Sequence record: MW250786
Reading direction: 5' to 3' (one strand)
DNA length: 64,000 nt
DNA from: Escherichia phage UPEC06
The translations under genes and the position numbers were made by a program. Of this stretch, positions 47,155 through 61,714 are shown one piece after another (the stretch's first letter is position 1; every line of letters begins with the position of its first letter). The notes beneath the pieces are model-generated. The model was not told the origin of the DNA, did not search any database, and was given only the letters and a program-made list of their open reading frames with translations.

Positions 47155-47185
47155 CAAGGGAGCCTCGTGCTCCCTTTTCTTTTAA
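47155..47185 (+). terminator. stem-loop / terminator
   Basis: AAGGGAGC-ctcgt-GCTCCCTT followed by TTCTTTTAAT. Confidence 0.45.
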
Positions 47186-47242: not shown

Positions 47243-48727
47243 ATGGCGTCCAATTACGGTCTAACGGGTAGTGGATTTAACCTCCCGCCGATGGAAGACT
47301 TGATTCAGGAAACGAAGAAAACTTTCAAGAATGAATTTGGTGAAGATTTCAATACCGAAAGTAACTCAGTTGCTGACAAACTCATTTCTATCTTTAACGA
47401 ACGTGAATATCAACTCTGGTTGTTGATGGGTTCTGTTTATTACGCACAGACAATGCAAGGTGCAGAAGGTATTTACCTTGACGACCTTTTATCTAAGCGT
47501 GGTATTTATCGTAACGGGAAGACTCGAAGCACAGGTCAGGTTCAGTTGACCATTGATTCCACTATCCCTTACAACATGATTTACTCTGCCTCTGCATACA
47601 CCATCGACAACGATTATCGTCTATCTAACGATGTTCAGGTTGCAGGAAACATTTTTGCTCAGGTCATCCGTGGTTCGGATCTTTCTGTCGGAAGTTACCG
47701 ATTACAGATCCAGAACATCAATGATCAATCGATCAAGACCATGACATATCAATTGACAGCCACCACTGGTGCGCCTGTTATCGCATTCTTCTCTGCAATT
47801 AAAGATTTCATTGTGGAGAACACTATCCTGTCCAACCGTGATAAAATCATTATTGATTCCGTAGCCAACTCTATCCACATTGGGTATGATAGTAACAAGA
47901 ACCTTATCGGCTTGTCAAGCAGAATCGATTTCCGTACTCAACCATTGGCAGGTACTAGAACTATCACAATGGATGTTAGAGCTACGGAGCCTGGTTTAAC
48001 ATCTCGTGATGCTTTCAGTGTTCGTGGAATAAGTCCGGTTCCGGCGGGTTTCCTTGACTTGACGAACCTGATTGCATTCACCCCAGGGTCAGACGTAGAA
48101 TCAGATAATGAATACCGTCTCCGTGCAATTGATGCAGTTAACACAGGAAAGGCCACTCGTGCAGCGATCCTTTCTGCACTGCTGAACAAAGTTGAGGGTA
48201 TAGAAAAGGTAAGGATCTTTGCAAACAATACCGACAAGACTAACTCTGTTGGTGTACCTCCTTACTCCTTCATGCCTGTTGTTTACGGTGGTAACACTGC
48301 TGAAATCAGTCAGGTACTTTACGACACTATCGCGGGTTCCAACAATACGTCAGGGAGTACTTTCTACAATATCACCACTGAAGATGACCAAGTAGAAACA
48401 ATCTGGCACACGAAGGCCCAAGCTCGTAACCTGAGTATGAGAATCAGCTATCGTGGAAGACCTCTTTCTGTTGTCGAAGAAACAACTATCTCAAATAGCT
48501 TGATTACTGCGATAAATGGGACTATTATAGCCGGAACTCTGTACAACGTTCAGTTGGTAGGTACAGTTATCAGTTCAACGGCATCATCTCGTTTCACTCA
48601 AGTTTTTGTTGAGATTAAGAACGTAGAAGAACCTGAGTCTTCCTATGTTGGAACAGATGTATCTGCCGATGTTACTGAAGTATTCGCCCTGTCCGCAGAG
48701 AATATTGAATTCCGTCAGATAGTTTAA
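47243..48727 (+). CDS. putative baseplate J-like protein (gp6/gpJ family)
   Basis: 494 aa; position after W-like and before I-like and fibre genes. Confidence 0.45.
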   Translation: MASNYGLTGSGFNLPPMEDLIQETKKTFKNEFGEDFNTESNSVADKLISIFNEREYQLWLLMGSVYYAQTMQGAEGIYLDDLLSKRGIYRNGKTRSTGQVQLTIDSTIPYNMIYSASAYTIDNDYRLSNDVQVAGNIFAQVIRGSDLSVGSYRLQIQNINDQSIKTMTYQLTATTGAPVIAFFSAIKDFIVENTILSNRDKIIIDSVANSIHIGYDSNKNLIGLSSRIDFRTQPLAGTRTITMDVRATEPGLTSRDAFSVRGISPVPAGFLDLTNLIAFTPGSDVESDNEYRLRAIDAVNTGKATRAAILSALLNKVEGIEKVRIFANNTDKTNSVGVPPYSFMPVVYGGNTAEISQVLYDTIAGSNNTSGSTFYNITTEDDQVETIWHTKAQARNLSMRISYRGRPLSVVEETTISNSLITAINGTIIAGTLYNVQLVGTVISSTASSRFTQVFVEIKNVEEPESSYVGTDVSADVTEVFALSAENIEFRQIV

Positions 48728-49390: not shown

Positions 49391-51025
49391 ATGGCTAGAC
49401 CAACAACACCGATTGTTGTCTTTGCGGCACAAGATGTTAACCTTCCTGGCACTGGAAGACCTAACAAATCAAAACCGATTGATGACCTTTTAGCGAAGGG
49501 CTATGACAAAGGACAAAAACCAGCGGCAGAGGAATTCAACTATATTCTTCACCAATCTGGTGCTTGGCTTAACTGGATCGTAGAAGAGAAGTTCCCTGAA
49601 GTTGAAGAAGAATATAAGCGACTGATTCAGGAACTCGAAACACGAGTAAACAATCAACTGGAAGTTATTCGTGAAGATGTTGCAAACGTAAGACAATCAG
49701 TTGCAACCTTGAGAACTTATGTAGAGCAAACTGTTGCAGACATTCGTCGTGAGATCACTGCGGTTGATCAGCGTGTTACTCGTTTGTCTCAAGACTTGGA
49801 TAATGCTGTTTCCAGATTAAACGCCCGTATTGATGAGCTTGAACCTCGTTTAGTTCCGATCGGTGCAATTCTTACTTGGGCAGGCCAAACACCTCCGGCG
49901 GGATTCTTGGAATGTAATGGACAGGTATACAGTACATCTCAAAACCCGAAACTTTATCAAGTCCTTGGTAGGAACGTAGTACCTGATTATCGTGGATTGT
50001 TCCTTCGTGGCTGGGCGCACGGATCTGGCGCTTACGATCCTGACTCTGGTCGTGCTTTGGGTTCTATTCAAGGTGATGCGATTCGAAACATTACTGGCGC
50101 GATGGGTTACGAAAGTATTCGTACTGACCACGGATATCGTGAGAGTGGTGCACTTTATACGCAATATAACTCAAACTCAGGTCCTGATCACGATCGTAAA
50201 AACCCAGCGGGTGATGTTCGATTTGATGCAAGCCGTGTTGTTCCGACTGCACCAGAAAACAGACCTAAGAACGTCGCAGTGATGTATATTATCAAGACTG
50301 ATCAGGCACAAGGTACGGGAAGTCTGTCACCAACTGCACTTGTTACTACGCCGGACACTATTACAAACCGCGTAGGGTTTACTCAAGGGATTTCTGCTCA
50401 GGTTCTCCCTGCAAACTTGGCAAGTCAATACCCTGTGACGTGGACTTCTCAGAACGGTAATGTTGCAACAGTGGATAGTGCAGGTAACGTAAGATTAACT
50501 GGTCCAGGTGAAACTAACATTATCGCCTCTATCTCTACTGGTATCTCTGCCCAAGTTAAAATAGTTTCATATACACCACTGACAGCAATCAGTATCGGTA
50601 GCATACCTAGTGTAGAGGTTAATGATTCCGAGGTTATTCCTGTTAATAGAACACCTGCTAACTCTAACGAGCCTCTCGTGTATTCTACCAGTAATGCTAA
50701 CGTCGCTGTTGTAACTCAAAGCGGTTACGTATCTGGTGTTTCTCCAGGTACAGCGGTAATAACAGTTCGTGGGTCTATCACAGGCATCCAAGCCACAAGA
50801 CAGGTCACTGTAATTCCTGCAACGATTGTTCAGACCATAGAGGATGTTCGTTTAGGTCTTGAGCAACAGACGACAATGAATGGCGATGATTATACAAATC
50901 CTGTGCGTGCTCCGGCGGGTTGTGTTATTACTGGCGTTGTATCAGCAGGTCTTGGGTTAAATCAAGGTTATTATAAACCGATCCAGAAGCGTATATCTGG
51001 CGTATGGGTAACGGTGGAGGGTTAA
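49391..51025 (+). CDS. tail fibre protein with tail-collar domain and Ig-like repeats
   Basis: PIGAILTWAGQTPPAGFLECNGQVYSTSQNPKLYQVLG...YRGLFLRGW matches the phage tail-collar motif; C-terminal half has repeated Ig-like segments. Confidence 0.6.
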   Translation: MARPTTPIVVFAAQDVNLPGTGRPNKSKPIDDLLAKGYDKGQKPAAEEFNYILHQSGAWLNWIVEEKFPEVEEEYKRLIQELETRVNNQLEVIREDVANVRQSVATLRTYVEQTVADIRREITAVDQRVTRLSQDLDNAVSRLNARIDELEPRLVPIGAILTWAGQTPPAGFLECNGQVYSTSQNPKLYQVLGRNVVPDYRGLFLRGWAHGSGAYDPDSGRALGSIQGDAIRNITGAMGYESIRTDHGYRESGALYTQYNSNSGPDHDRKNPAGDVRFDASRVVPTAPENRPKNVAVMYIIKTDQAQGTGSLSPTALVTTPDTITNRVGFTQGISAQVLPANLASQYPVTWTSQNGNVATVDSAGNVRLTGPGETNIIASISTGISAQVKIVSYTPLTAISIGSIPSVEVNDSEVIPVNRTPANSNEPLVYSTSNANVAVVTQSGYVSGVSPGTAVITVRGSITGIQATRQVTVIPATIVQTIEDVRLGLEQQTTMNGDDYTNPVRAPAGCVITGVVSAGLGLNQGYYKPIQKRISGVWVTVEG

Positions 51026-51027
51026 TT

Positions 51028-51540
51028 ATGAGAATGAATAACTTCAAGCTTTATACACCGGAAGTTAAATCTTTCGGAGAAGGAGTTCAGTATTTTCAGG
51101 ATGATAAGGGTCGTGATTTCTACGACTCTCGTGCACTATTCAAAAAGAAATATGTTGTTTTCTTTGATGAGCATAATATTGTCCGTGGCTGGGCAAAGAG
51201 TGAAGAAGTTACCCGTCTTCACCCAGGTGGTTTATCTGTTGTGGATCTTAATACCCTCCCTAAAGATTTTTCTTTGCAAGGTGGTGTTTGGTCATTCAAC
51301 GGAAAACAGGTAGTTAAGGCAGACTATGATCCTGCTTTTAGCACCGCTGCAAGAAAGGCTGGCATTCTGCAAGTGATCGGTTCTGTTATCGTTCCGCTTC
51401 AGGATGCTGTTGAATTGGGAGATGCTACAGATGATGAGCTTGAGAAGTATAACGATCTTCGTAAGATGAGAGTTAAAGTCATGCGTATCCCTGATAGCAC
51501 CTCCCCTGGTGATATCGACTGGTCAGAGTTCACCTTTTAA
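51028..51540 (+). CDS. putative tail fibre assembly protein
   Basis: Directly downstream of and overlapping the tail fibre gene end; SD GGAGGG. Confidence 0.35.
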   Translation: MRMNNFKLYTPEVKSFGEGVQYFQDDKGRDFYDSRALFKKKYVVFFDEHNIVRGWAKSEEVTRLHPGGLSVVDLNTLPKDFSLQGGVWSFNGKQVVKADYDPAFSTAARKAGILQVIGSVIVPLQDAVELGDATDDELEKYNDLRKMRVKVMRIPDSTSPGDIDWSEFTF

Positions 51541-51579
51541 CCTTAGATGAGTCGGGCTTCGGCCCGACTATGGAGACTT

Positions 51580-51912
51580 ATGATTGTTGATATAATGGCA
51601 GTTCTTAAAGCACTTTGGGGTCTTTTAACATTTATTTTGCTGGGTGCACTAAAGATCTTTTACACCGACTTTAAAAAATTAGAGTCACGTCAAAGCGAGC
51701 TTGAAAAAGATGTTCTTCGTTTGAAGGAATCTGCGGTTACTAAGGATAGTATCGATGCCATTCTTGACCGTAAGATAAAACATATCACTGATACGATCCA
51801 GGATATTAGGACCGATATCACAGATATGCGAAAGGAAGCAAAAGAAGAAAACCACGCTCTACAGAAGGATATTCGAGAATTACTAAACAAAATTATTGAG
51901 AACCGCAAATGA
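51580..51912 (+). CDS. membrane protein with coiled-coil (holin-like or other membrane function)
   Basis: N-terminal TM helix (MIVDIMAVLKALWGLLTFILLGAL) then charged coiled-coil; start at internal ATG after the 51550-51569 hairpin. Confidence 0.35.
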   Translation: MIVDIMAVLKALWGLLTFILLGALKIFYTDFKKLESRQSELEKDVLRLKESAVTKDSIDAILDRKIKHITDTIQDIRTDITDMRKEAKEENHALQKDIRELLNKIIENRK

Positions 51913-52367
51913 TTACAGCCATAATATATGGCATTTGTTTCGTAATCCTTGCTACTCGAAAAGAGAGTGGAACAAAGATAATGGCTGGGCTTTGCCTAGC
52001 CTATCTCGTATTGGAGAACCTGATCCTTTGGTTCTTCTCTACGCAACAATATTTCGACATCACTCTTTATTTTAATGTTCTCTGGACATTGGATTCGATA
52101 CTGCTTTTCACTATGGGTTGTACAGTGAAAGGATTACGACAAAAACTTATCGTATGCCTAAGTATTCCGTTCATGCTTATTCAAGTGTTTGCAATCCAAT
52201 ATCCAGAATTGTTCCCCTTATGGGTTTACGAATTCGCTCTTAGAGACGCTCACAAATATTTCATAGAAACCTTTGTGTTCGTTTATTCTTGGAAGGATAA
52301 TACCGTACCGGAATGGATAAGGACAGCAGTGGTGATATTTCTGGTGCTCATTGCCCATATGGTATGA
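51909..52367 (+). CDS. polytopic membrane protein (about 4 TM helices)
   Basis: Four hydrophobic segments; overlapping start/stop with neighbours. Confidence 0.4.
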   Translation: MITAIIYGICFVILATRKESGTKIMAGLCLAYLVLENLILWFFSTQQYFDITLYFNVLWTLDSILLFTMGCTVKGLRQKLIVCLSIPFMLIQVFAIQYPELFPLWVYEFALRDAHKYFIETFVFVYSWKDNTVPEWIRTAVVIFLVLIAHMV

Positions 52368-52389
52368 ACATTGATAATGAAGGTGATCT

Positions 52390-52650
52390 ATGTTAAAATT
52401 TCTCAAAGACCTCGTTACCTCTGCGGTGGAACCAGATAAAGCTTCCCATACAAAGTTTTGGTCTAACGTAGGTATGGCTGCTATGACTGCCGTCTTTCTA
52501 TGGTATGGATTCAACAATACATTGCCTGAATGGTATGTGTGGCTTTATGCTCCTACGGTAGTGGCTCCACACCTTTTGAGTGATCTCATTAACCTCCGCT
52601 GGGGATTATCTTTGAAAAAAGATAAAGGCCCTTCTGACGAAAACAAGTAA
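52390..52650 (+). CDS. small membrane protein (holin-like topology)
   Basis: Two hydrophobic segments and a charged C-terminus (KKDKGPSDENK). Confidence 0.35.
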   Translation: MLKFLKDLVTSAVEPDKASHTKFWSNVGMAAMTAVFLWYGFNNTLPEWYVWLYAPTVVAPHLLSDLINLRWGLSLKKDKGPSDENK

Positions 52651-52662
52651 GAGGAGAAAACT

Positions 52663-55600
52663 GTGTCGTCTAATACTGATATATTGGCACTGGTAAGTAC
52701 CGAAGCAGATCTTGCTGTTGACCAGATCATTGAAGACTCTCGAAGACTTCATTTGATCGTCAACGGAACTGCAACAGAACAAGCTGTTACAGAAGATGGT
52801 AGCTTAATCCCTAGTGTACGTAAAGCGATAATTGATAACTTTTATTTTAAAACTCCACCGTTACCGTGGAGAAATGGAAGTTCAGTTATTGAATTCAATC
52901 AGTTATATGCATTTACCGATGTAAATGGCAACGTAACTTGGTGGTATGCCCCAGGTGCAACTACCAGCACTCCTGTCGTTATGCGAGACAGTCCAATCAA
53001 CGACGGTAAGTTCAGACCTTTCTTCGATAAAGGTAACATTCAAGAAACTTACGCCCCTATCCTTTCCCCTGTTTTTCGTGGAAACCCTACTGTACCTCTT
53101 GCTGCTGAAGGTGATAACTCATTTACTATCGCGAACACAGCTTGGGTTAGTCGAGAAATAGAAAAAGTACGTGGTGAGGTTCTTGAAGAGTCCAGAGGTG
53201 AATTCCAAAACATTATCGTTGCAGATGATGCGAGTCTGAAAGATCTCTATGTAAGTGGAGAAACCATCTTCACTGGCGACAGGATCGCTGCTCTTGATGC
53301 CGAGTTATCTTTAAAAAGATTACGAATGACAGGGACAGACGCAGAAATCGCATTTGAACAAAATGGCGTTCCACCCCAGGCAGGGTTAACAAAAAGAACA
53401 AATATCAAGCCTTTCCAAGTCACCACTGGTGTTGTTGATACCGATAATATAACTGCGAGAGAGATCAAGGTTGGAAATACCTCTGTTTCCACGAATTCTC
53501 TTGATGTTGATGGATTCATGCAAGGTGACTATCTTCACTTAGAGGGTAATGCCAATAACGCAGAAGACCGCCCACAACTGATCGTTGACGGTATTGCGGA
53601 AATAAATACTCTTCGTGTGACGAACACCATTGAAGGATTGAAGGCTGACGTTGAAGGTCTGGATATTAATCCTAACAGCATTGTGGTTGAAAGAACTGCG
53701 GAGATTAAGGGAAATACAACCCTTGGTGCAGATCTTGCCGTTACTGGCAATACGGTATTGAAAAATGTAAGAATCGAAGGTACTCTCACGGGTGCTGGAA
53801 TCGGTGTTGACGGGAAAGACATTTCCCCTCGTAATGTGAGTGCAACATCCGTTACTGTGGCAGAGAGCTTAAACATTACTGGACCTACTACGGCTTCCGG
53901 CGACGTTACGGTAAACAACCTGACGGTTAATGGAACACTCAGGGCCGATATCGACTTTGGAACTGCTGCTGTTGAATTCCAAGATCTGACTGTGACTAAC
54001 AAGGCAACGATCAAGGATCTTGAAATCACCGGAAACCTGACGGGAGTTACAGTCTCTGTTGATGGTGAAGCAATCTCCCCTTCTTCGGTGACAACCACAG
54101 GAAACATCGATGTTGGTAACAACATGCGTGTTCGTGGTGATATTACTCTGGACGGTGAGTTAAGTATCCCAAGCTTAGATACTGGGGACATAACGGCTGC
54201 TGCAATTGATGGTGCGAGCCTCTCAGTTAGTGGCGACATTACCGCAGGAACAACTTCGACCACAACGGTTAACAATCTTGTAGTCACAGGAACCACTACA
54301 GGAATCACTGTAACGGGCAATGTTGACGGACAAGACATTCTCCCATCCTCTGTAGAAACAACGTCTGTAGTGGCCTCTGAGAGAGTTACAACGGCAAACC
54401 TGACATCTACAGGTGACACTCAGGTAAATAACCTGACAATTACTGGAACTGTAACAGGATTCGATGTAGATCTTACCGGAAAGGACATTCAGGTTAATAC
54501 CTTGACGGTTACTCGCGGGTCAACTTTTGACGAGGTTACTGCTAATAACATAACCAACAATCAAAAGATTACCACAGTAGACCTTCAGGTTACTGGAAAC
54601 CTGACGAATGCAGACGGTGAACAATTCTTTGCAAACGTCACTGGTCAAGATATACTTCCTAATAGTGTGCAGTCTGCAACGTCTGTGAGAACTAAAACGC
54701 TACGTGTCGAAGAGACTAGCCTATTGGAAGGTGCTGTTACCTTAAATGATGGTTTGACTATCACTGGTGGTAATATCACATCTGTTCAAGGTCAAGCAAG
54801 CTTCAATGACGTACAGGTATTTGGATCTCTTCTGGACGCGAATGGTAATGCCTTAGGGACAGCGGAAAGCATAAACGGTAAAGATATCTCTCCTCGTAGC
54901 GTTACTGCTCAAGTTGAGATTCAGACTACTGCAATTGTTGCTACAGGTCAAGCTGAAGTTGGTTCTTTGATTTCAACTGGACAAGTAATGGCAGGAAGCT
55001 TAGAGGTTTCAGGGATAGGTAATATTGGTCAGGTTATTACCGACGACGTTCGTGCTGGAAAGGTAACTTCTGGTAACACCGTTATTACTCGTACTGTTGG
55101 ATCTAGCGATCCTGCTCTTGAAGTTCGTGGACCAGGTGAGATTCAGGGTGACCTTAATGTAACCGGAACTGTAACTGGTAACATTGACCTTAGCTCTCAA
55201 GACGTTAACGTTGCTTCAATGACCTCAACGGGAACAGTAAATGCCCTTTCCATTGAGTCTCGTACATCGGTAACTGGATTGTCTGGTACATTCGGTGAAG
55301 ATTATGAAGGTGCACCTACCTATGGTATAACTTCTCTTTCCGGCGCAAACATCAACAAGAACCTTCGAGTTGGTGGAAACCTGACTGTTGTTGGTAACAT
55401 CTCTGGCAATATCGACTTATCTGGAAAGGCGATCGAGCCTGCATCTTTGTCTACCACGACAGCTACGTTAACGACGGCGAACATAACAGACCTGACTGTA
55501 ACTGGTCAGTTTAATATCCCGACTGTACCGTTAAATGTTCAATCCCTTAGTTCTGAAAACGCTATTTCCGCAAGCAAGTTCAGCACCACACCAAAAGAAG

Positions 55601-55896
55601 TAAGCACCACCTCTTCTTCTTACATCCCAGACGGCTCAACGAGCATATATAACGTAAACGTTATAAATGATGTTGAAGTGAAAGCGCCGATTGGCCTGTT
55701 GAGTTCAGGAAAAGGTGAGTCGGTATTCCTCTTCTTTGAACAGGATGGTACTGGTGGACATGCGGTAACATTCGGATCGGAGTTTGTTGTGCATGGTACT
55801 GAAACCATCAAAACAGATGCAAACACTGTATCGGTAGTTAACATGGTTTATCGTGGCAAAGGCCCATTGATTGACGTATTCATCACTCGTCGCTAA
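52663..55896 (+). CDS. large tail fibre / tail spike protein
   Basis: 1077 aa, Thr/Val/Gly/Asn-rich with quasi-repeats (VTGN.TG...DISP.SV); downstream of baseplate genes. Confidence 0.55.
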   Translation: MSSNTDILALVSTEADLAVDQIIEDSRRLHLIVNGTATEQAVTEDGSLIPSVRKAIIDNFYFKTPPLPWRNGSSVIEFNQLYAFTDVNGNVTWWYAPGATTSTPVVMRDSPINDGKFRPFFDKGNIQETYAPILSPVFRGNPTVPLAAEGDNSFTIANTAWVSREIEKVRGEVLEESRGEFQNIIVADDASLKDLYVSGETIFTGDRIAALDAELSLKRLRMTGTDAEIAFEQNGVPPQAGLTKRTNIKPFQVTTGVVDTDNITAREIKVGNTSVSTNSLDVDGFMQGDYLHLEGNANNAEDRPQLIVDGIAEINTLRVTNTIEGLKADVEGLDINPNSIVVERTAEIKGNTTLGADLAVTGNTVLKNVRIEGTLTGAGIGVDGKDISPRNVSATSVTVAESLNITGPTTASGDVTVNNLTVNGTLRADIDFGTAAVEFQDLTVTNKATIKDLEITGNLTGVTVSVDGEAISPSSVTTTGNIDVGNNMRVRGDITLDGELSIPSLDTGDITAAAIDGASLSVSGDITAGTTSTTTVNNLVVTGTTTGITVTGNVDGQDILPSSVETTSVVASERVTTANLTSTGDTQVNNLTITGTVTGFDVDLTGKDIQVNTLTVTRGSTFDEVTANNITNNQKITTVDLQVTGNLTNADGEQFFANVTGQDILPNSVQSATSVRTKTLRVEETSLLEGAVTLNDGLTITGGNITSVQGQASFNDVQVFGSLLDANGNALGTAESINGKDISPRSVTAQVEIQTTAIVATGQAEVGSLISTGQVMAGSLEVSGIGNIGQVITDDVRAGKVTSGNTVITRTVGSSDPALEVRGPGEIQGDLNVTGTVTGNIDLSSQDVNVASMTSTGTVNALSIESRTSVTGLSGTFGEDYEGAPTYGITSLSGANINKNLRVGGNLTVVGNISGNIDLSGKAIEPASLSTTTATLTTANITDLTVTGQFNIPTVPLNVQSLSSENAISASKFSTTPKEVSTTSSSYIPDGSTSIYNVNVINDVEVKAPIGLLSSGKGESVFLFFEQDGTGGHAVTFGSEFVVHGTETIKTDANTVSVVNMVYRGKGPLIDVFITRR

Positions 55897-55898
55897 TA

Positions 55899-55925
55899 GA
55901 GGCCCTTCGGGGCCTTTTCTTTTTA
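55899..55925 (+). terminator. rho-independent terminator
   Basis: GAGGCCC-TTCG-GGGCCTT followed by TTCTTTTT. Confidence 0.55.
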
Positions 55926-58913: not shown

Positions 58914-59501
58914 TCAAGGACGTTTTGGTGGACTAACGACACCTTTTTTAGATAAAGGTAATTCGTCTGCATCTTTTCCACGAAGAGATTCTAGCCACTC
59001 ATCTAAAGACAGGGGTACTTTACCATCACCTTTGGACCACACAGACAAGCAATACAGATCGTATGCAGATGGACCTCGATCACCTTTGTCACCATTCGGC
59101 CCTTTTAAGCTCTCCAACCAATCCTTTTCGTTCAGTGGGATAGCACCTGGATCTTCTTGATGAAGAACTCTTAGGTATGTTTCATAAGCAGACTCTCCAC
59201 GAGGACCCATTTGACCCTTCTCACCTTGTGGCCCTTTTGCATAATCTGCGTACTTAGATTCCAGATATGCAGACTTCACACCTTCAGGGGCAACGGAAAC
59301 CTTATACAATGACCAAGCTAACAGAGCTATCCAACAAGCAAACAGTGCAAGCGGATAAGGGATCATTGAAGTAAAGAATGACAGAGCTAAAATTACAACC
59401 TTGTTCTTGTGATTACGACGGAAAGCGATGATCACAGGGGCTAACCAGATAGCAAAGATAACCCACGCAGATAAGATAAACAACCAACTAATGTATTCCA
59501 T
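58914..59501 (-). CDS. membrane protein with collagen-like GXY / SAY...WLESLKG motifs
   Basis: Three N-terminal hydrophobic segments, then two copies of GP.GE.G...SAY...WLESL(K/R)G, the motif family seen in the 29947 fibre protein. Confidence 0.45.
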   Translation of the reverse strand: MEYISWLFILSAWVIFAIWLAPVIIAFRRNHKNKVVILALSFFTSMIPYPLALFACWIALLAWSLYKVSVAPEGVKSAYLESKYADYAKGPQGEKGQMGPRGESAYETYLRVLHQEDPGAIPLNEKDWLESLKGPNGDKGDRGPSAYDLYCLSVWSKGDGKVPLSLDEWLESLRGKDADELPLSKKGVVSPPKRP

Positions 59502-59689
59502 TAAGCCTCCTCGGTATCGTCTTTAAAGTAATCTAACATCCAACTTTCTACAGGGGTTGCATAGTAACCCGTTCGACCTTTCTTTTGAAACTCCATGATA
59601 ATTTCATTTGCAATACCTTTTGTGATTGCGATCCCGATCAGTGCACCACCAGGTCCCATTACTGCATGTGAACTAAGATCATTACTCAT
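59501..59689 (-). CDS. hypothetical protein
   Basis: ORF track; overlapping start/stop. Confidence 0.3.
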   Translation of the reverse strand: MSNDLSSHAVMGPGGALIGIAITKGIANEIIMEFQKKGRTGYYATPVESWMLDYFKDDTEEA

Positions 59690-59981
59690 TTTTAACCCCC
59701 TTCATTTTATCTCTTAAACTTTGAGCATCCCACGTATAACCTGAGGAGATACCTTTTTCACGTTCACTATCTTTGAACTTGCAAATTACAGATTTTGCTT
59801 CACCATCAACAACAACCGCATAACTGTTGTAATAATTGTGTTGCTTCTTGCAAAATTCGTGTAACTCCTTAACCTCTATTGGCATCAGAGAAGGTAGATT
59901 TTTGTATCGCTTTGTCTGATCATCTTCACCATCTCCGCAACCAACAAGAAGAAGTATACATAAAATGATTAACCTTTTCAA
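59682..59981 (-). CDS. putative lipoprotein
   Basis: Signal peptide with lipobox LVGC; TTG start with GGGGGT SD-like sequence. Confidence 0.4.
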   Translation of the reverse strand: MKRLIILCILLLVGCGDGEDDQTKRYKNLPSLMPIEVKELHEFCKKQHNYYNSYAVVVDGEAKSVICKFKDSEREKGISSGYTWDAQSLRDKMKGVKNE

Positions 59982-60129
59982 TAGCTACCCCCAAAATATT
60001 TTGTAATCTCTACTGCAAATATTGTCCCAAGTATAAACCATGTGGCACTTAGTACGTTGAAGGGTAAAAACCTTGATCCTGTAAGAGAAACCATAATGAA
60101 AAACGTTACAAAAATCTCTGGAGAAATCA

Positions 60130-60531
60130 TCATTGTTTGATAGTCCCCTTGGCGATCATCTCGTCAAGTTCATCTTCCGCACGACACATAATCTGATAGA
60201 TAGTCTCTGGATTGTTTAAGAATTCTGTGTACTTTTTGATACGACAAACTAAACGTGCACGAACTTTACGCTCACGGGCCACATGATTAAAGTAATGTCC
60301 CTTTTGTCTGTAGATCCAAGCATAATATACAGTTTTTGCTCTATTGCGATCACAACCTAAACGTTCAGCCAACAGAGTGTAAGGGTCATTATTAGTGGGA
60401 CCAAACAAAAATATTTCTGCAAAACTTTCCTTCATGATACGAGATTCTTCATCCGTGATTCGCGGACATTCTTCAGAACCGTAGCGTGGGGTTTTAGTGG
60501 CATTTGGCTTCTTAGGGTATACTTTACGCAT
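60130..60531 (-). CDS. hypothetical protein (basic; possibly nucleic-acid binding)
   Basis: Basic composition with several Cys (CPRI, CDRN, CRIK, CRAE). Confidence 0.3.
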   Translation of the reverse strand: MRKVYPKKPNATKTPRYGSEECPRITDEESRIMKESFAEIFLFGPTNNDPYTLLAERLGCDRNRAKTVYYAWIYRQKGHYFNHVARERKVRARLVCRIKKYTEFLNNPETIYQIMCRAEDELDEMIAKGTIKQ

Positions 60532-60598
60532 TTCATCACTCCTCTAATTAAAACTCTTACTCCCGATGTGAGGAGCCTTTCGGCCCCTCTCTTAAATA

Positions 60599-61207
60599 TC
60601 AATCACAACTACTTGAAGAACTACTGCTGCTACTGTCAGAAGAATAACTATCATATGATGATGAGCTATCATACGAACTTGATCGACTTGAAGAACAGTA
60701 AGAACTTGAACTACTTGTACGATCTTCACTGGAGGACATTACAGCAGCATACGTTGCCACACCACCTAAAGCTGCCACCTGAGGATCAACCTGGCTAGTT
60801 CCATATCCATTTGGAGAGTCGCTCATCTTACGTGGTGCTGCCCGACGTGCCTGATCAATATACTGTCGCTTTGCCTTCGGCGGTAATTTCTTACCTTGAG
60901 CATAGGACGGTAATTCAACGCCCTTCAGTTGTTCATTCAAAGGTTTCGGCGGTGTAGCCTGTGATTTTGGTCGTTCAACAGAGATATCAACAACCTTCAT
61001 CGTCTTATCCTTGATGTTTACCCCAACCAGTACTTCATTTTCTTTTAATGGCTTTTCAAGATCGCGTGTTTCAACTGGACCAAATTTAACGCTTGCAGTT
61101 TCCTGACGTTGTTCGGCCTGCTTTGCAATATATTTGTCGATCGCCGCAGTTTCTACTTCCAGCGGAATAAACAGTGATTTTACCCAAGCAACAAACTTCT
61201 TGATCAT
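60599..61207 (-). CDS. hypothetical protein with serine-rich low-complexity C-terminus
   Basis: C-terminal SSSEDRTSSSSSYCSSSRSSSYDSSSSYDSYSSDSSSSSSSSSCD. Confidence 0.4.
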   Translation of the reverse strand: MIKKFVAWVKSLFIPLEVETAAIDKYIAKQAEQRQETASVKFGPVETRDLEKPLKENEVLVGVNIKDKTMKVVDISVERPKSQATPPKPLNEQLKGVELPSYAQGKKLPPKAKRQYIDQARRAAPRKMSDSPNGYGTSQVDPQVAALGGVATYAAVMSSSEDRTSSSSSYCSSSRSSSYDSSSSYDSYSSDSSSSSSSSSCD

Positions 61208-61428
61208 ACTCTTTCTCCTTTTTCATCAATAACAATCAGTGGCTCAATAACTAAAAGACGTTGCTTCATAAGACTTTTTATAGTCTCATCAATGTCAGAC
61301 AGAAGAATATCTTTTTGACCTTCTATCCAATTGAGTGCTGCCTTTTCTGAAACAAATGCAATACCTTCTTGACCAATATCCCATTCACAGAATACTTTAT
61401 ACACCATCATCCTCTCCCTTGTCAACAT
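61204..61428 (-). CDS. hypothetical protein
   Basis: ORF track. Confidence 0.3.
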   Translation of the reverse strand: MLTRERMMVYKVFCEWDIGQEGIAFVSEKAALNWIEGQKDILLSDIDETIKSLMKQRLLVIEPLIVIDEKGERV

Positions 61429-61714
61429 TATTCGGATTCAGTTTCTTTTCTGCGGTCTTCAAAATAATATCCAGCTTTTCAATTTCCTTATGTAAAGGCT
61501 CAGATAATAACTTCTCACCAAAAAGCCAGAATTTCTTCATGCCTTTCTTAACGCACTTCCCCATAAAGCCCGCGAGGTCTTCTAGTCGCCAAGCGATAAA
61601 ACTAAATATTGCAGCTAAAAGGTGAATCACGGCCAGCAGTAAACGATGTGGGTTTAGTACAGCAAGGCACAGGATCATAAAGATTATTTTAGTAAATCCC
61701 CAAATAATTTTCAT
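61397..61714 (-). CDS. hypothetical membrane protein
   Basis: Two N-terminal hydrophobic segments. Confidence 0.3.
   Translation of the reverse strand: MKIIWGFTKIIFMILCLAVLNPHRLLLAVIHLLAAIFSFIAWRLEDLAGFMGKCVKKGMKKFWLFGEKLLSEPLHKEIEKLDIILKTAEKKLNPNNVDKGEDDGV

What the first reader, a model, noticed from the sequence alone, without database searches (positions are those of the whole stretch)
51580..52650. Three consecutive membrane-protein genes inserted among the tail-fibre genes
A TM-plus-coiled-coil protein, a four-helix membrane protein and a two-helix small membrane protein lie between the tail-fibre assembly gene and the 1077-aa fibre gene. No endolysin or holin is recognisable next to the spanins at 22.2-22.8 kb, so these could be the holin/antiholin set placed away from the spanins, or exclusion/immunity proteins linked to receptor-binding genes.
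Basis: inference. Interest (0 to 1): 0.45.

Follow-up and report, generated by a model that had tools for sequence, protein, structure and literature searches.

The report
Probable holin module among tail-fibre genes
Three small membrane-protein genes sit among the tail-fibre genes of this rV5-like phage, and the third belongs to a large unnamed protein family that elsewhere sits between the cell-wall-degrading enzyme and the outer-membrane-disruption genes, so it is probably the long-missing holin (the lysis-timing membrane protein) of this phage group.

Summary
The window comes from a Vequintavirinae myovirus, about 96% identical in DNA to Escherichia phage A5-4.

The three genes are:
- g1, 51580-51912, 110 aa: an N-terminal transmembrane helix plus a coiled coil.
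- g2, 51909-52367, 152 aa: a bundle of 5-6 helices.
- g3, 52390-52650, 86 aa: a helical hairpin.

They lie tightly packed between the tail-fibre assembly gene and the 1077-aa fibre gene. No terminator separates them from the surrounding late tail operon. Homologues occur in 219, 106 and 373 phage genomes respectively, and the whole trio recurs in Aeromonas Plateaulakevirus phages.

The key result concerns g3. A profile search places it in a family of at least 180 clusters (phrog_1322; some members hit Pfam DUF2644). In small, mostly Mu-like phages, members of this family sit directly downstream of soluble endolysins of at least five unrelated enzyme classes (at least 45 of 63 loci). They sit upstream of Rz/Rz1-type spanins (53 of 64 loci). 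That position is the holin slot.

g1-g3 do not co-vary with the receptor-binding parts of the flanking fibres, which argues against immunity proteins.

No function has been tested experimentally. The roles of g1 and g2 remain inferred. A rival candidate pair, a SleB-like hydrolase plus a small two-helix protein, lies elsewhere in the genome.

The parts
47156..47176 (+). Terminator-like hairpin marking the upstream edge of the transcription unit that contains g1-g3
   Evidence: stem of 8 pairs (5 G-C) followed by a T-run. The next + strand gene starts at 47243.
51004..51540 (+). Tail-fibre assembly (chaperone) gene immediately upstream. Relatives annotate the start at 51028.
   Evidence: Pfam Caudo_TAP E 2.4e-11 and phrog_136 E 3.7e-40. 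The annotated homologues are A54_244 and CB7_32.
51550..51569 (+). G+C-rich UUCG hairpin between the chaperone gene and g1. It has no U-tract, so it is not a canonical terminator.
   Evidence: the 71-nt fold has an 8-bp stem and -18.3 kcal/mol, but the z-score is only -1.57. One search lists no terminator here.
51580..51912 (+). g1: 110-aa single-pass membrane protein. It has an N-terminal transmembrane helix (about residues 11-24) and a charged coiled-coil domain of about 80 aa, predicted to face the cytoplasm (N-out/C-in).
   Evidence: phrog_5345 E 1.6e-35. Homologues in 219 phage records. The charge distribution puts more positive residues after the helix. Only generic coiled-coil matches in the PDB. 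Ribosome-binding site GGAG at 51572-51575.
51909..52367 (+). g2: 152-aa multi-pass membrane protein forming a compact bundle of 5-6 helices with invariant polar residues (D62, Q92, Q97, E120, D130). Absent from rV5-like phages in the strict sense.
   Evidence: phrog_7451 E 1.4e-61. Homologues in 106 records. Alignments. AF2 pLDDT 84. Fold searches gave only generic helical bundles. Relatives carry the precomputed label PF26221. The ATGA overlap with g1 is shown.
52390..52650 (+). g3: 86-aa helical-hairpin membrane protein. It has a conserved cytoplasmic N-terminus with the motif SHTKFWSN, helices 20-41 and 47-71, and a hydrophilic disordered tail. Proposed holin.
   Evidence: phrog_1322 E 2.1e-29. 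Homologues in 373 records. The profile search found 180 clusters. hhalign probability 99.6% to lysis-cassette members. AF2 model. Family hydropathy and charge profile.
52663..55896 (+). 1077-aa tail-fibre gene immediately downstream (GTG start, GAGGAG ribosome-binding site)
   Evidence: phrog_4549 E 7.6e-249. Only its N-terminal part is conserved between genera.
55898..55917 (+). Terminator-like hairpin ending the operon
   Evidence: 8-pair stem, UUCG loop, T-run.
22178..22537 (+). i-spanin (Rz-like). A distant part of the same lysis pathway.
   Evidence: N-terminal helix followed by a charged periplasmic region. Homologue of CB7_252.
22534..22836 (+). o-spanin (Rz1-like lipoprotein, lipobox LVGC). 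Its start overlaps the i-spanin stop, and it lies next to TerL (22937-24424).
   Evidence: The CB7 paper describes the same arrangement.

Best explanation
g3 is the phage's holin. It is an N-in/C-in two-helix inner-membrane protein. It is made from the late tail operon and accumulates in the membrane. At a set time it permeabilises the membrane, so that the soluble M15-type endolysin, encoded elsewhere in the genome, reaches the cell wall. The spanins encoded next to the terminase gene then disrupt the outer membrane.

g3 is a diverged member of a large family with no functional annotation (phrog_1322; part of it is Pfam DUF2644). In small phages this family sits in the holin slot of endolysin-holin-Rz/Rz1 cassettes.

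g1 is a membrane-tethered cytoplasmic coiled coil and g2 is a multi-pass helical bundle. Both are conserved together with g3 and translated in a coupled way. They are most likely accessory membrane partners that tune g3, as antiholins or lysis-timing factors do. g2 is dispensable, since rV5-like phages lack it.

What is shown: gene reality, conservation, architecture, operon position, homology of g3 to the cassette family, and the genomic contexts of that family.

What is inferred: hole formation by g3, its pairing with the M15 endolysin, and any role of g1 and g2.
For: 1. Homology. A profile of Vequintavirinae g3 finds 180 cluster representatives at E <= 1e-3. All 142 that were tested hit phrog_1322, and 8 hit DUF2644. 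hhalign of the Vequintavirinae set against the cassette set gives probability 99.6% and E 5.8e-25 over 78 columns. A cassette member finds Vequintavirinae g3 in the reverse tblastn search.

2. Context of the family.
- A metagenomic contig has a GH108 endolysin, then the g3-like gene, then an i-spanin and a lipoprotein o-spanin.
- Pseudomonas Mu-like phage Bise has Mor, then a soluble Peptidase_M15_4, then the g3-like gene.
- Ralstonia phage RS138 has ORF26, then the g3-like gene, then an annotated Rz protein.
- In IMG/VR, 381 loci were confirmed. Among the 80 best, 63 have an upstream ORF abutting the g3-like gene.
- Those upstream ORFs hit VanY (28), Amidase_2 (12), Peptidase_M15_4 (12), GH19 (3), M15_3 (2), M15_2 (2), Phage_lysozyme (1) and CHAP (1).
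- Most of these upstream enzymes lack any N-terminal hydrophobic segment.
- 53 of 64 loci have a lipobox ORF within 1.3 kb downstream, usually embedded in an ORF with an N-terminal transmembrane helix.

3. Need for a holin. Relatives encode a soluble 127-aa Peptidase_M15_4 endolysin with no membrane-protein neighbour.

4. Timing. g1-g3 lie in a unit bounded by terminators at 47156-47176 and 55898-55917. In the late-strand block of the window they are the only non-spanin membrane-protein ORFs that are not nested inside larger genes. Late transcription is characteristic of confirmed holins (PMC9239132).

5. Not structural. The CB7 homologues CB7_33, 34 and 35 are not MS/MS-confirmed, whereas the flanking virion proteins are.

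6. Topology. The family-wide profile shows two hydrophobic peaks, a short acidic loop and a net-positive N-terminus. AF2 predicts a helical hairpin.

7. Precedent, from established knowledge of the T4 genome: T4 holin gene t lies directly after tail-fibre genes 37 and 38, far from the endolysin and spanin genes.

8. The holin of this subfamily is unassigned. Published candidates differ from paper to paper and none is conserved across the subfamily.
Against: - No member of the family has been tested experimentally, as far as the libraries searched show. Every database name is 'hypothetical' or 'membrane protein'.
- g3 matches no Pfam holin family. The best is Phage_holin_9 at E 0.17, in a single relative.
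- g3 is unusually well conserved for a holin: 80% identity to CB7 and 50% to rV5-like phages, as good as the baseplate wedge protein.
- Its C-terminal tail is hydrophilic but not consistently basic.
- Its helices are only weakly hydrophobic. My hydropathy scan found none at its threshold, and the PVP-SE1 record reports one transmembrane domain.
- About half of the cassette loci also have some other transmembrane ORF within 1.5 kb upstream of the endolysin. 21 of 66 carry a further ORF with an N-terminal helix and a coiled coil. So the g3-like gene is not always the only holin candidate, and it could be an antiholin or an accessory protein.
- A rival pair exists elsewhere in the genome: a SleB-like secreted hydrolase plus a 70-aa two-helix protein.
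- g1 and g2 have no relatives outside this phage lineage, so no independent context supports a lysis role for them.
Confidence: 0.55

Rival explanations
1. The real holin-endolysin pair is the SleB-like signal-peptide hydrolase plus the overlapping small two-helix protein. These are A54_27 and A54_26 in A5-4 and CB7_83 and CB7_82 in CB7, and they lie outside this window. On this reading g1-g3 do something else in the late membrane, such as helping tail-fibre or baseplate assembly or maintaining the membrane, and the resemblance of g3 to cassette proteins reflects a shared fold or an accessory role.
For: - A54_27 is a Hydrolase_2 homologue with a Sec-type signal peptide. A54_26 has two strongly hydrophobic helices and a basic C-terminus (YEKRKNKVTK), and its gene overlaps the hydrolase gene.
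- The CB7 authors proposed CB7_82 as a class II holin and report that the hydrolase is toxic when expressed.
- g1 always follows the fibre chaperone gene, even in rV5-like phages, where a second short-fibre gene separates g1 from g3.
Against: - By tblastn, A54_26 is found only in the five closest phages.
- In rV5-like JeffSchatz the SleB-like gene is followed by rIIA and rIIB, not by a small membrane protein.
- The pair sits among replication genes on the early-strand block, whereas confirmed holins are late genes.
- A secreted hydrolase does not explain how the soluble M15, lysozyme-type endolysins of the subfamily get out of the cytoplasm.
- The CB7 homologues of g1-g3 are not virion proteins.
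Confidence: 0.18
2. g3 and its family are lysis-cassette accessory proteins, such as an antiholin, a lysis-timing regulator or an endolysin-release factor, and do not form the hole themselves. In Vequintavirinae the hole-former would then be another protein, possibly g2 or an unrecognised one.
For: - Some cassettes have other small multi-helix ORFs just upstream of the endolysin in addition to the g3-like gene, for example L018 and L040-L042. 21 of 66 loci carry a further ORF with an N-terminal helix and a coiled coil.
- The cytoplasmic N-terminal motif (SHTKxWxN) is highly conserved, which suggests a specific protein contact.
- The helices are weakly hydrophobic and rich in Gly and Ala.
- Mu shows that non-holin membrane proteins, such as the releasin, can occupy lysis cassettes.
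Against: - In roughly half of the loci no other transmembrane ORF precedes the endolysin. In Bise, for example, Mor directly precedes it.
- The partner endolysins are soluble, so a hole-former is required, and the g3-like gene is the constant membrane component besides the spanins.
Confidence: 0.15
3. g1-g3 are superinfection-exclusion or receptor-masking proteins linked to the tail-fibre genes, in the way that T5 Llp or T1/phi80 Cor are linked to their receptor-binding genes.
For: - They lie among receptor-binding genes.
- PHROGs files phrog_1322 under 'moron, auxiliary metabolic gene and host takeover'.
- g1 has a weak hit to phrog_1625, 'bacteriocin production or immunity', at E 0.0016.
Against: - They do not co-vary with the receptor-binding regions. 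g3 is 80%, 60% and 50% identical to its CB7, PVP-SE1 and rV5-like counterparts, while the fibres share only their N-termini.
- They are conserved across phages of Escherichia, Salmonella, Klebsiella, Cronobacter, Pectobacterium, Erwinia, Serratia, Proteus and Aeromonas.
- They sit in a late operon.
- They have no lipoprotein signal and no PADLOC match at E <= 0.01 (g2 and g3 none at E <= 1; g1 one weak hit, E 0.023).
- g3's relatives sit in lysis cassettes.
- Better exclusion candidates exist: a cluster of membrane and lipoprotein ORFs on the early strand at 58.9-61.7 kb.
Confidence: 0.07

Closest known systems
Class II (two-helix, N-in/C-in) holins of canonical endolysin-holin-Rz/Rz1 cassettes, for example the S21 type
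   Same: - Small size (86 aa).
- Two helices with a short periplasmic loop.
- Cytoplasmic N- and C-termini, with a hydrophilic tail.
- Late expression.
- Relatives lie between an endolysin and the spanins, and the partner enzymes belong to many different classes.
   Different: - No sequence match to any Pfam holin family.
- Here the gene is far from both the endolysin and the spanins.
- The partner endolysins of relatives are soluble rather than SAR (signal-anchor-release) type, so it is not a pinholin arrangement.
- The tail is not consistently basic.
- Conservation is unusually high.
Phage T4 holin gene t, with its regulators RI and RIII (established knowledge of the T4 genome; the comparison is also made for rV5 in PMC3606486)
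   Same: In a large virulent myovirus, the lysis-timing gene lies directly after the tail-fibre and chaperone genes. It is separated from the endolysin and spanin genes. Separate small proteins regulate the holin.
   Different: T is a single-helix protein with a large periplasmic domain. There is no Phage_holin_T match here. No homology of g1 or g2 to RI or RIII was found in the family scans run here; no direct comparison with RI or RIII sequences was made.
Pfam DUF2644 (PF10841) / PHROG phrog_1322 'membrane protein'
   Same: g3 hits phrog_1322 at E 2.1e-29. All 142 family representatives tested hit it too. 8 of them hit DUF2644, the best at E 6.3e-07.
   Different: g3 itself does not reach DUF2644 even at E <= 1. 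Neither entry carries a function, and no paper in the library mentions DUF2644.
Mu releasin gp25 (DUF2730), compared with g1
   Same: Same architecture: about 100 aa, an N-terminal helix predicted N-out/C-in, and a cytoplasmic helical domain rich in acidic residues, encoded in a late lysis context.
   Different: No detectable sequence similarity. There is no Pfam DUF2730 hit, and hhalign probability against Mu gp25 is 1%. The endolysin here is not SAR type.
P2 LysA, a four-helix membrane protein that modulates lysis timing (recalled from the literature, not tested), compared with g2
   Same: A multi-pass membrane protein of about 140-150 aa encoded beside a holin in a late operon. It is dispensable: g2 is absent from rV5-like phages.
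   Different: Homology could not be tested here. g2 folds as a compact bundle of 5-6 helices with conserved polar residues.

Membership tests
Holin (functional class) | Small integral inner-membrane protein with at least one transmembrane helix and a hydrophilic C-terminus | tested here: met
   g3 is 86 aa, with helices 20-41 and 47-71 and a disordered hydrophilic tail. The tail is charged but its net charge is only about +1.
Holin (functional class) | Encoded on a late transcript | tested here: inconclusive
   g3 lies inside the tail and baseplate operon, between terminator-like sites at 47156-47176 and 55898-55917. No transcript data are available.
Holin (functional class) | Genetic linkage to an endolysin or spanins | tested here: not met
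   In this phage g3 lies about 29 kb from the spanins, and the endolysin is outside the window. The feature is met for homologues: at least 45 of 63 have an endolysin immediately upstream and 53 of 64 have a lipoprotein ORF downstream.
Holin (functional class) | Lethal membrane lesion that can be triggered by energy poisons and releases endolysin | not testable with these tools
   Requires expression experiments.
phrog_1322 / g3 superfamily | Significant profile match over the full length, with the conserved motifs SHTKxWxN and SK..S.(R/K).G | tested here: met
   phrog_1322 E 2.1e-29. hhalign probability 99.6%. The motifs are visible in the alignments.
Pfam DUF2644 (PF10841) | Match to the Pfam model | tested here: not met
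   g3 has no hit at E <= 1. 8 of 142 relatives hit it, the best at E 6.3e-07.
Pinholin / SAR-endolysin system | Partner endolysin carries an N-terminal signal-anchor-release (SAR) domain | tested here: not met
   The endolysins upstream of g3-like genes mostly lack any N-terminal hydrophobic segment. The phage's own M15 endolysin has none.
i-spanin (Rz-like), considered for g1 | N-in/C-out topology with a periplasmic coiled coil, and an adjacent or embedded o-spanin lipoprotein gene | tested here: not met
   The charge distribution predicts N-out/C-in. No lipobox ORF lies next to g1. A true spanin pair exists at 22178-22836. PHROG spanin hits are weak, at E 0.002-0.02.
Mu releasin (DUF2730), considered for g1 | Match to DUF2730 or to Mu gp25 | tested here: not met
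   No Pfam hit. hhalign probability 1%. This test has low power, since a single sequence was compared with a small profile.
Cor/Llp-type receptor-linked exclusion proteins | Lipoprotein or outer-membrane targeting signal, and co-variation with the receptor-binding protein | tested here: not met
   No lipobox in g1-g3. The genes stay conserved while the fibre C-termini are exchanged.
T4 holin T (Phage_holin_T) | Pfam match, a single helix and a large periplasmic domain | tested here: not met
   No Pfam hit for g1, g2 or g3. The architectures differ.

The most novel reading that the evidence does not exclude
The trio g1-g2-g3 is an ancient, self-contained lysis-timing module embedded in the tail-fibre operon of rV5-like, phi92-like and Plateaulakevirus phages. 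Its core, g3, would establish phrog_1322/DUF2644 as a previously unrecognised, widespread holin family. That family has hundreds of members in Mu-like and other phages, each paired with a soluble endolysin. g1, a membrane-tethered cytoplasmic coiled coil, would be a new kind of cytoplasmic-side holin regulator, possibly coupling lysis timing to completion of tail-fibre assembly.
Probability: 0.3. Interest if true: 0.6.

Novelty: new member of a known kind. Interest (0 to 1): 0.45.

Why it matters
**An unresolved annotation.** Vequintavirinae and their relatives (rV5, PVP-SE1, phi92, CR3 and the Klebsiella Mydovirus phages) are widely used as therapeutic and biocontrol phages. Their holin has never been identified. 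Different papers nominate different, non-conserved small proteins.

**What this would settle.** Placing g3 in a family that fills the holin slot in hundreds of canonical cassettes gives one testable candidate that is conserved across the whole subfamily. It would also give a function to a family of at least 180 clusters that carries no functional name in Pfam, PHROGs, NCBIfam or RefSeq. That would improve lysis-gene annotation for Mu-like prophages.

**A wider point.** It would also be a second example, after T4 gene t, of a holin housed in a tail-fibre operon.

Tried and rejected
- **g1 as a second i-spanin.** Rejected on predicted topology, the lack of a lipoprotein partner, and the presence of a true spanin pair.
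- **g1 as a homologue of Mu releasin, or of the ORFs with an N-terminal helix and coiled coil found in Mu-like cassettes.** hhalign probabilities were 1-2% and there was no DUF2730 hit. Only the architecture is alike.
- **Independent contexts for g1 and g2.** Both protein searches and an IMG/VR scan returned only Vequintavirinae-like loci.
- **Name of Pfam PF26221, the label carried by g2 relatives.** It is not in the local Pfam copy and not in the paper library.
- **Literature on DUF2644.** No papers found.
- **NCBIfam and PADLOC.** No significant matches; the best hits were non-significant, E about 0.02.
- **Papers on KP12, UAE_MI-01 and the APEC phage.** Their holin statements concern unrelated phages or cassettes.
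- **The BASEL 'putative holin' bas55_0113.** It has no homologue in the A5-4-type genome, CB7 or PVP-SE1 sequence held here.
- **The hairpin at 51550-51569 as a terminator.** It has no U-tract and its fold z-score is only -1.57.
Full report
**What the window is.** The region 51000-53000 is 96.2-96.6% identical in DNA to Escherichia phages A5-4, A7_1, vB_EcoM-LTH01, A73 and W70. These are unclassified Vequintavirinae myoviruses of 137-145 kb. Window coordinate equals A5-4 coordinate plus 23014.

**The observation.**
- g1 has a GGAG ribosome-binding site, and its start matches the annotation of relatives.
- The g2 start overlaps the g1 stop (ATGA). g3 follows after 22 nt. The GTG start of the 1077-aa fibre gene follows g3 after 12 nt.
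- Upstream is a Caudo_TAP tail-fibre assembly gene.
- All three match PHROG families strongly, at 1.6e-35, 1.4e-61 and 2.1e-29.
- tblastn finds them in 219, 106 and 373 phage records. They are real, conserved genes.

**Anatomy.**
- g1 has one N-terminal hydrophobic helix followed by about 80 highly charged residues (21 K+R, 20 D+E). These match only generic coiled coils in Pfam and the PDB.
- In g1, positive charges cluster after the helix. In the rV5-type homologue the N-terminus is acidic. This predicts an N-out/C-in topology, that is, a cytoplasmic coiled coil tethered to the membrane.
- g2 has five hydropathy peaks. A confident AF2 model (pLDDT 84, pTM 0.74) shows six or seven helices forming a compact bundle. 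D62, Q92, Q97, E120 and D130 are invariant.
- Fold searches for g2 returned only generic helical bundles.
- g3 is weakly hydrophobic. The family-averaged hydropathy nevertheless shows two clear peaks, at about 27-39 and 48-60, separated by a short acidic loop. The N-terminus is net positive.
- AF2 models g3 as a helical hairpin (helices 20-41 and 47-71, pLDDT 85-92) with a disordered tail. This is an N-in/C-in topology.

**Genomic setting.**
- Terminator-like hairpins lie at 47156-47176 and 55898-55917, with none between them. The G+C-rich UUCG hairpin at 51550-51569 has no U-tract.
- g1-g3 are therefore part of one unit: baseplate wedge, baseplate protein, 544-aa fibre, chaperone, g1, g2, g3, 1077-aa fibre.
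- In the late-strand block of the window (18-57 kb), the only non-spanin membrane-protein ORFs not nested inside larger genes are g1 and g2. g3 falls below the hydropathy threshold used.
- In Pectobacterium phage CB7 the flanking proteins are MS/MS-confirmed virion components. The chaperone and the three homologues CB7_33, 34 and 35 are not.

**Conservation pattern.**
- The trio occurs in the same place in Certrevirus (CB7) and Seunavirus (PVP-SE1, genes 44, 43 and 42).
- It also occurs in Aeromonas Plateaulakevirus 2L372X, where the g2-like ORF is unannotated.
- In rV5-like phages (JeffSchatz) a second short-fibre gene replaces g2, while g1 and g3 remain.
- In phAPEC8-like and phi92-like phages a g3 homologue sits in the tail-spike and baseplate cluster.
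- g3 identity to CB7, PVP-SE1, rV5-like and 2L372X is 80%, 60%, 50% and 32%. For the baseplate wedge protein the figures are 73%, 52%, 50% and 45%.
- The two flanking fibres keep only their N-terminal parts.
- The membrane genes therefore do not track receptor specificity.

**What g3 is related to.**
- A profile of 25 Vequintavirinae-type g3 sequences was searched against 1.84 billion cluster representatives. It found 180 proteins at E <= 1e-3, all 56-158 aa long.
- These proteins share the motifs SHTK(F/L)W(S/A)N before helix 1 and SK(F/L)LSL(R/K)YG after helix 2.
- All 142 that were tested hit phrog_1322, and 8 hit Pfam DUF2644.
- hhalign between the Vequintavirinae set and a set of distant members gives probability 99.6% and E 5.8e-25.
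- A distant member, P0175, finds Vequintavirinae g3 in the reverse tblastn search.

**Contexts of the distant members.**
- P0175 lies between a GH108/PG_binding_3 endolysin and an overlapping pair of i-spanin and lipoprotein o-spanin.
- In Pseudomonas Mu-like phage Bise the order is Mor, soluble Peptidase_M15_4, g3-like gene, further lysis-region ORFs, terminase.
- In Ralstonia phage RS138 the g3-like ORF27 lies between ORF26 and an annotated Rz protein.
- A scan of IMG/VR confirmed 381 loci.
- In the best 80, the gene could be delineated in 66. Of these, 63 have an ORF ending at its start.
- Those 63 ORFs hit VanY (28), Amidase_2 (12), Peptidase_M15_4 (12), Glyco_hydro_19 (3), Peptidase_M15_3 (2), Peptidase_M15_2 (2), Phage_lysozyme (1) and CHAP (1).
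- That makes at least 45 of 63 peptidoglycan hydrolases, drawn from at least five unrelated classes.
- Most of them have no N-terminal hydrophobic segment, so they are soluble endolysins that need a hole to escape.
- Downstream, 53 of 64 loci have a lipobox ORF within 1.3 kb, typically embedded in an ORF with an N-terminal transmembrane helix. This is the classic Rz/Rz1 arrangement.
- Mix-and-match pairing with unrelated endolysins, in the slot between endolysin and spanins, is what defines a holin gene by context.

**Caveats on that inference.**
- About half of the loci also have some transmembrane ORF within 1.5 kb upstream of the endolysin. Some of these are obvious lipoprotein morons or spurious ORFs. 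A few are small multi-helix proteins right next to the endolysin, for example in L018 and L040-L042.
- 21 of 66 loci have an additional ORF with an N-terminal helix and a coiled coil. The family could therefore be an accessory protein or an antiholin in some cassettes.
- The 80 loci are the best matches to one subfamily.
- No member has a functional name in RefSeq, NCBIfam, Pfam or PHROGs. I found no experimental paper.

**The rest of the lysis system.**
- The spanins are confirmed next to TerL (i-spanin about 22178-22537; o-spanin 22534-22836). Five tRNA genes lie upstream, and no endolysin or holin is nearby.
- Neither endolysin candidate lies in the window.
- In A5-4, a soluble 127-aa Peptidase_M15_4 (A54_159) lies among nucleotide-metabolism genes with no membrane-protein neighbour.
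- Also in A5-4, a SleB-like Hydrolase_2 with a signal peptide (A54_27) is overlapped by a 70-aa two-helix protein (A54_26) among replication genes.
- That pair corresponds to CB7_83 and CB7_82, which the CB7 authors proposed as a hydrolase plus class II holin.
- By tblastn, A54_26 is detectable only in the five closest phages.
- In rV5-like phages the SleB-like gene is followed by rIIA and rIIB instead.
- The literature nominates different holins for different members: rV5 gp129, BASEL bas55_0113 (no homologue here), CB7_82, and two unnamed proteins of 61 and 81 residues in BME3. The KPP-1 paper reports none found. The question is open.

**Most likely mechanism.**
- g3 accumulates in the inner membrane during late gene expression. 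It acts as the holin for the soluble endolysin, and the spanins finish the job.
- This mirrors T4, whose holin gene t lies directly after tail-fibre genes 37 and 38, far from e and the spanin genes. That is established knowledge of the T4 genome, and the rV5 paper draws the same analogy.
- g1 and g2 are conserved together with g3 over a deep divergence, from Vequintavirinae to Plateaulakevirus, and are translationally coupled. I infer that they modulate g3.
- g1 has the architecture of a membrane-tethered cytoplasmic factor, like Mu releasin, but no detectable homology to it. It could contact the conserved cytoplasmic N-terminus of g3.
- g2 is dispensable, since rV5-like phages lack it.
- These roles for g1 and g2 are inference only.

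**Rivals.**
1. The SleB-like hydrolase and its small two-helix neighbour are the true lysis pair, and g1-g3 do something else.
2. The g3 family is an accessory protein or antiholin rather than the hole-former.
3. g1-g3 are exclusion or immunity proteins. This is disfavoured by the lack of co-variation with the fibres, late expression, the absence of lipoprotein signals or significant PADLOC hits (g1 has one at E 0.023), and the lysis-cassette relatives.

**Novelty and verdict.**
- The kind of element, a holin with possible regulators, is well known. Its placement beside fibre genes has a T4 precedent.
- What is new is the assignment. A subfamily-wide conserved candidate is linked by homology to a large, functionally unannotated family that fills the holin slot in hundreds of cassettes.
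- I rate it a new member of a known kind and of moderate interest, with about 0.55 confidence that g3 is the holin.

Noticed in passing
window 20318-22060: Five tRNA genes (Met, Tyr, Pro, Gly, Gln) lie directly upstream of the spanin pair and TerL. The ORFs listed there are translations across the tRNA genes.
   Followed up: partly
window 58914-61714 (minus strand): A cluster of small membrane and lipoprotein ORFs sits on the early-strand block just past the structural module: a 195-aa multi-helix ORF, a lipobox ORF at 59682-59981, a 51-aa two-helix ORF and a 105-aa ORF. On first principles these are better candidates for exclusion or immunity functions than g1-g3.
   Followed up: no
L008 6514-6954 (Aeromonas phage 2L372X, NC_048770): An unannotated 146-aa multi-pass membrane ORF lies between the g1-like and g3-like genes. 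The full trio is therefore present in Plateaulakevirus phages.
   Followed up: partly
L015 5734-6012 (Pseudomonas phage Bise) and 20 further IMG/VR loci, e.g. L020 3437-3718 and L062 2637-2915: Mu-like lysis cassettes that carry a g3-like gene often also carry an ORF of about 92-136 aa with an N-out/C-in helix and a coiled coil (motif LP..Y.RR.D..R...V..AKLDA). Its architecture resembles Mu releasin, but it has no Pfam DUF2730 hit and no hhalign similarity to Mu gp25 or to g1.
   Followed up: partly
L098 4863-5246 (Stenotrophomonas phage Mendera), L017 5926-6363 (Acidovorax phage ACP17), L116 4001-4372: Members of the g3 family, apparently three-helix forms (shown for L116), occur as a lone gene on the opposite strand between DNA polymerase and the dUTPase, regA and clamp-loader genes of T4-like replication modules (with its own annotated terminator in Mendera). 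This is a third recurrent context for the family.
   Followed up: partly
L114 10475-14170 (Escherichia phage JeffSchatz): In rV5-like phages the SleB-like cell-wall hydrolase is immediately followed by rIIA and rIIB homologues. In A5-4 and CB7 it is instead overlapped by a small two-helix protein.
   Followed up: no
window 51550-51569: A G+C-rich hairpin with a UUCG loop lies between the fibre-chaperone stop codon and the g1 ribosome-binding site, with no U-tract. It may be a processing or stability element, but its folding energy is not significantly better than that of shuffled sequences (z -1.57).
   Followed up: partly
relatives of g2 (P0087-P0124): All carry a precomputed Pfam label, PF26221. 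It is absent from the local Pfam copy and from the paper library, so its name and description are unknown to me.
   Followed up: partly
L018 2829-3514: One IMG/VR cassette has two small multi-helix ORFs directly upstream of a CHAP endolysin, and a g3-like gene downstream as well. This could be a holin/antiholin pair plus g3-like, and it bears on whether the family always forms the hole.
   Followed up: no
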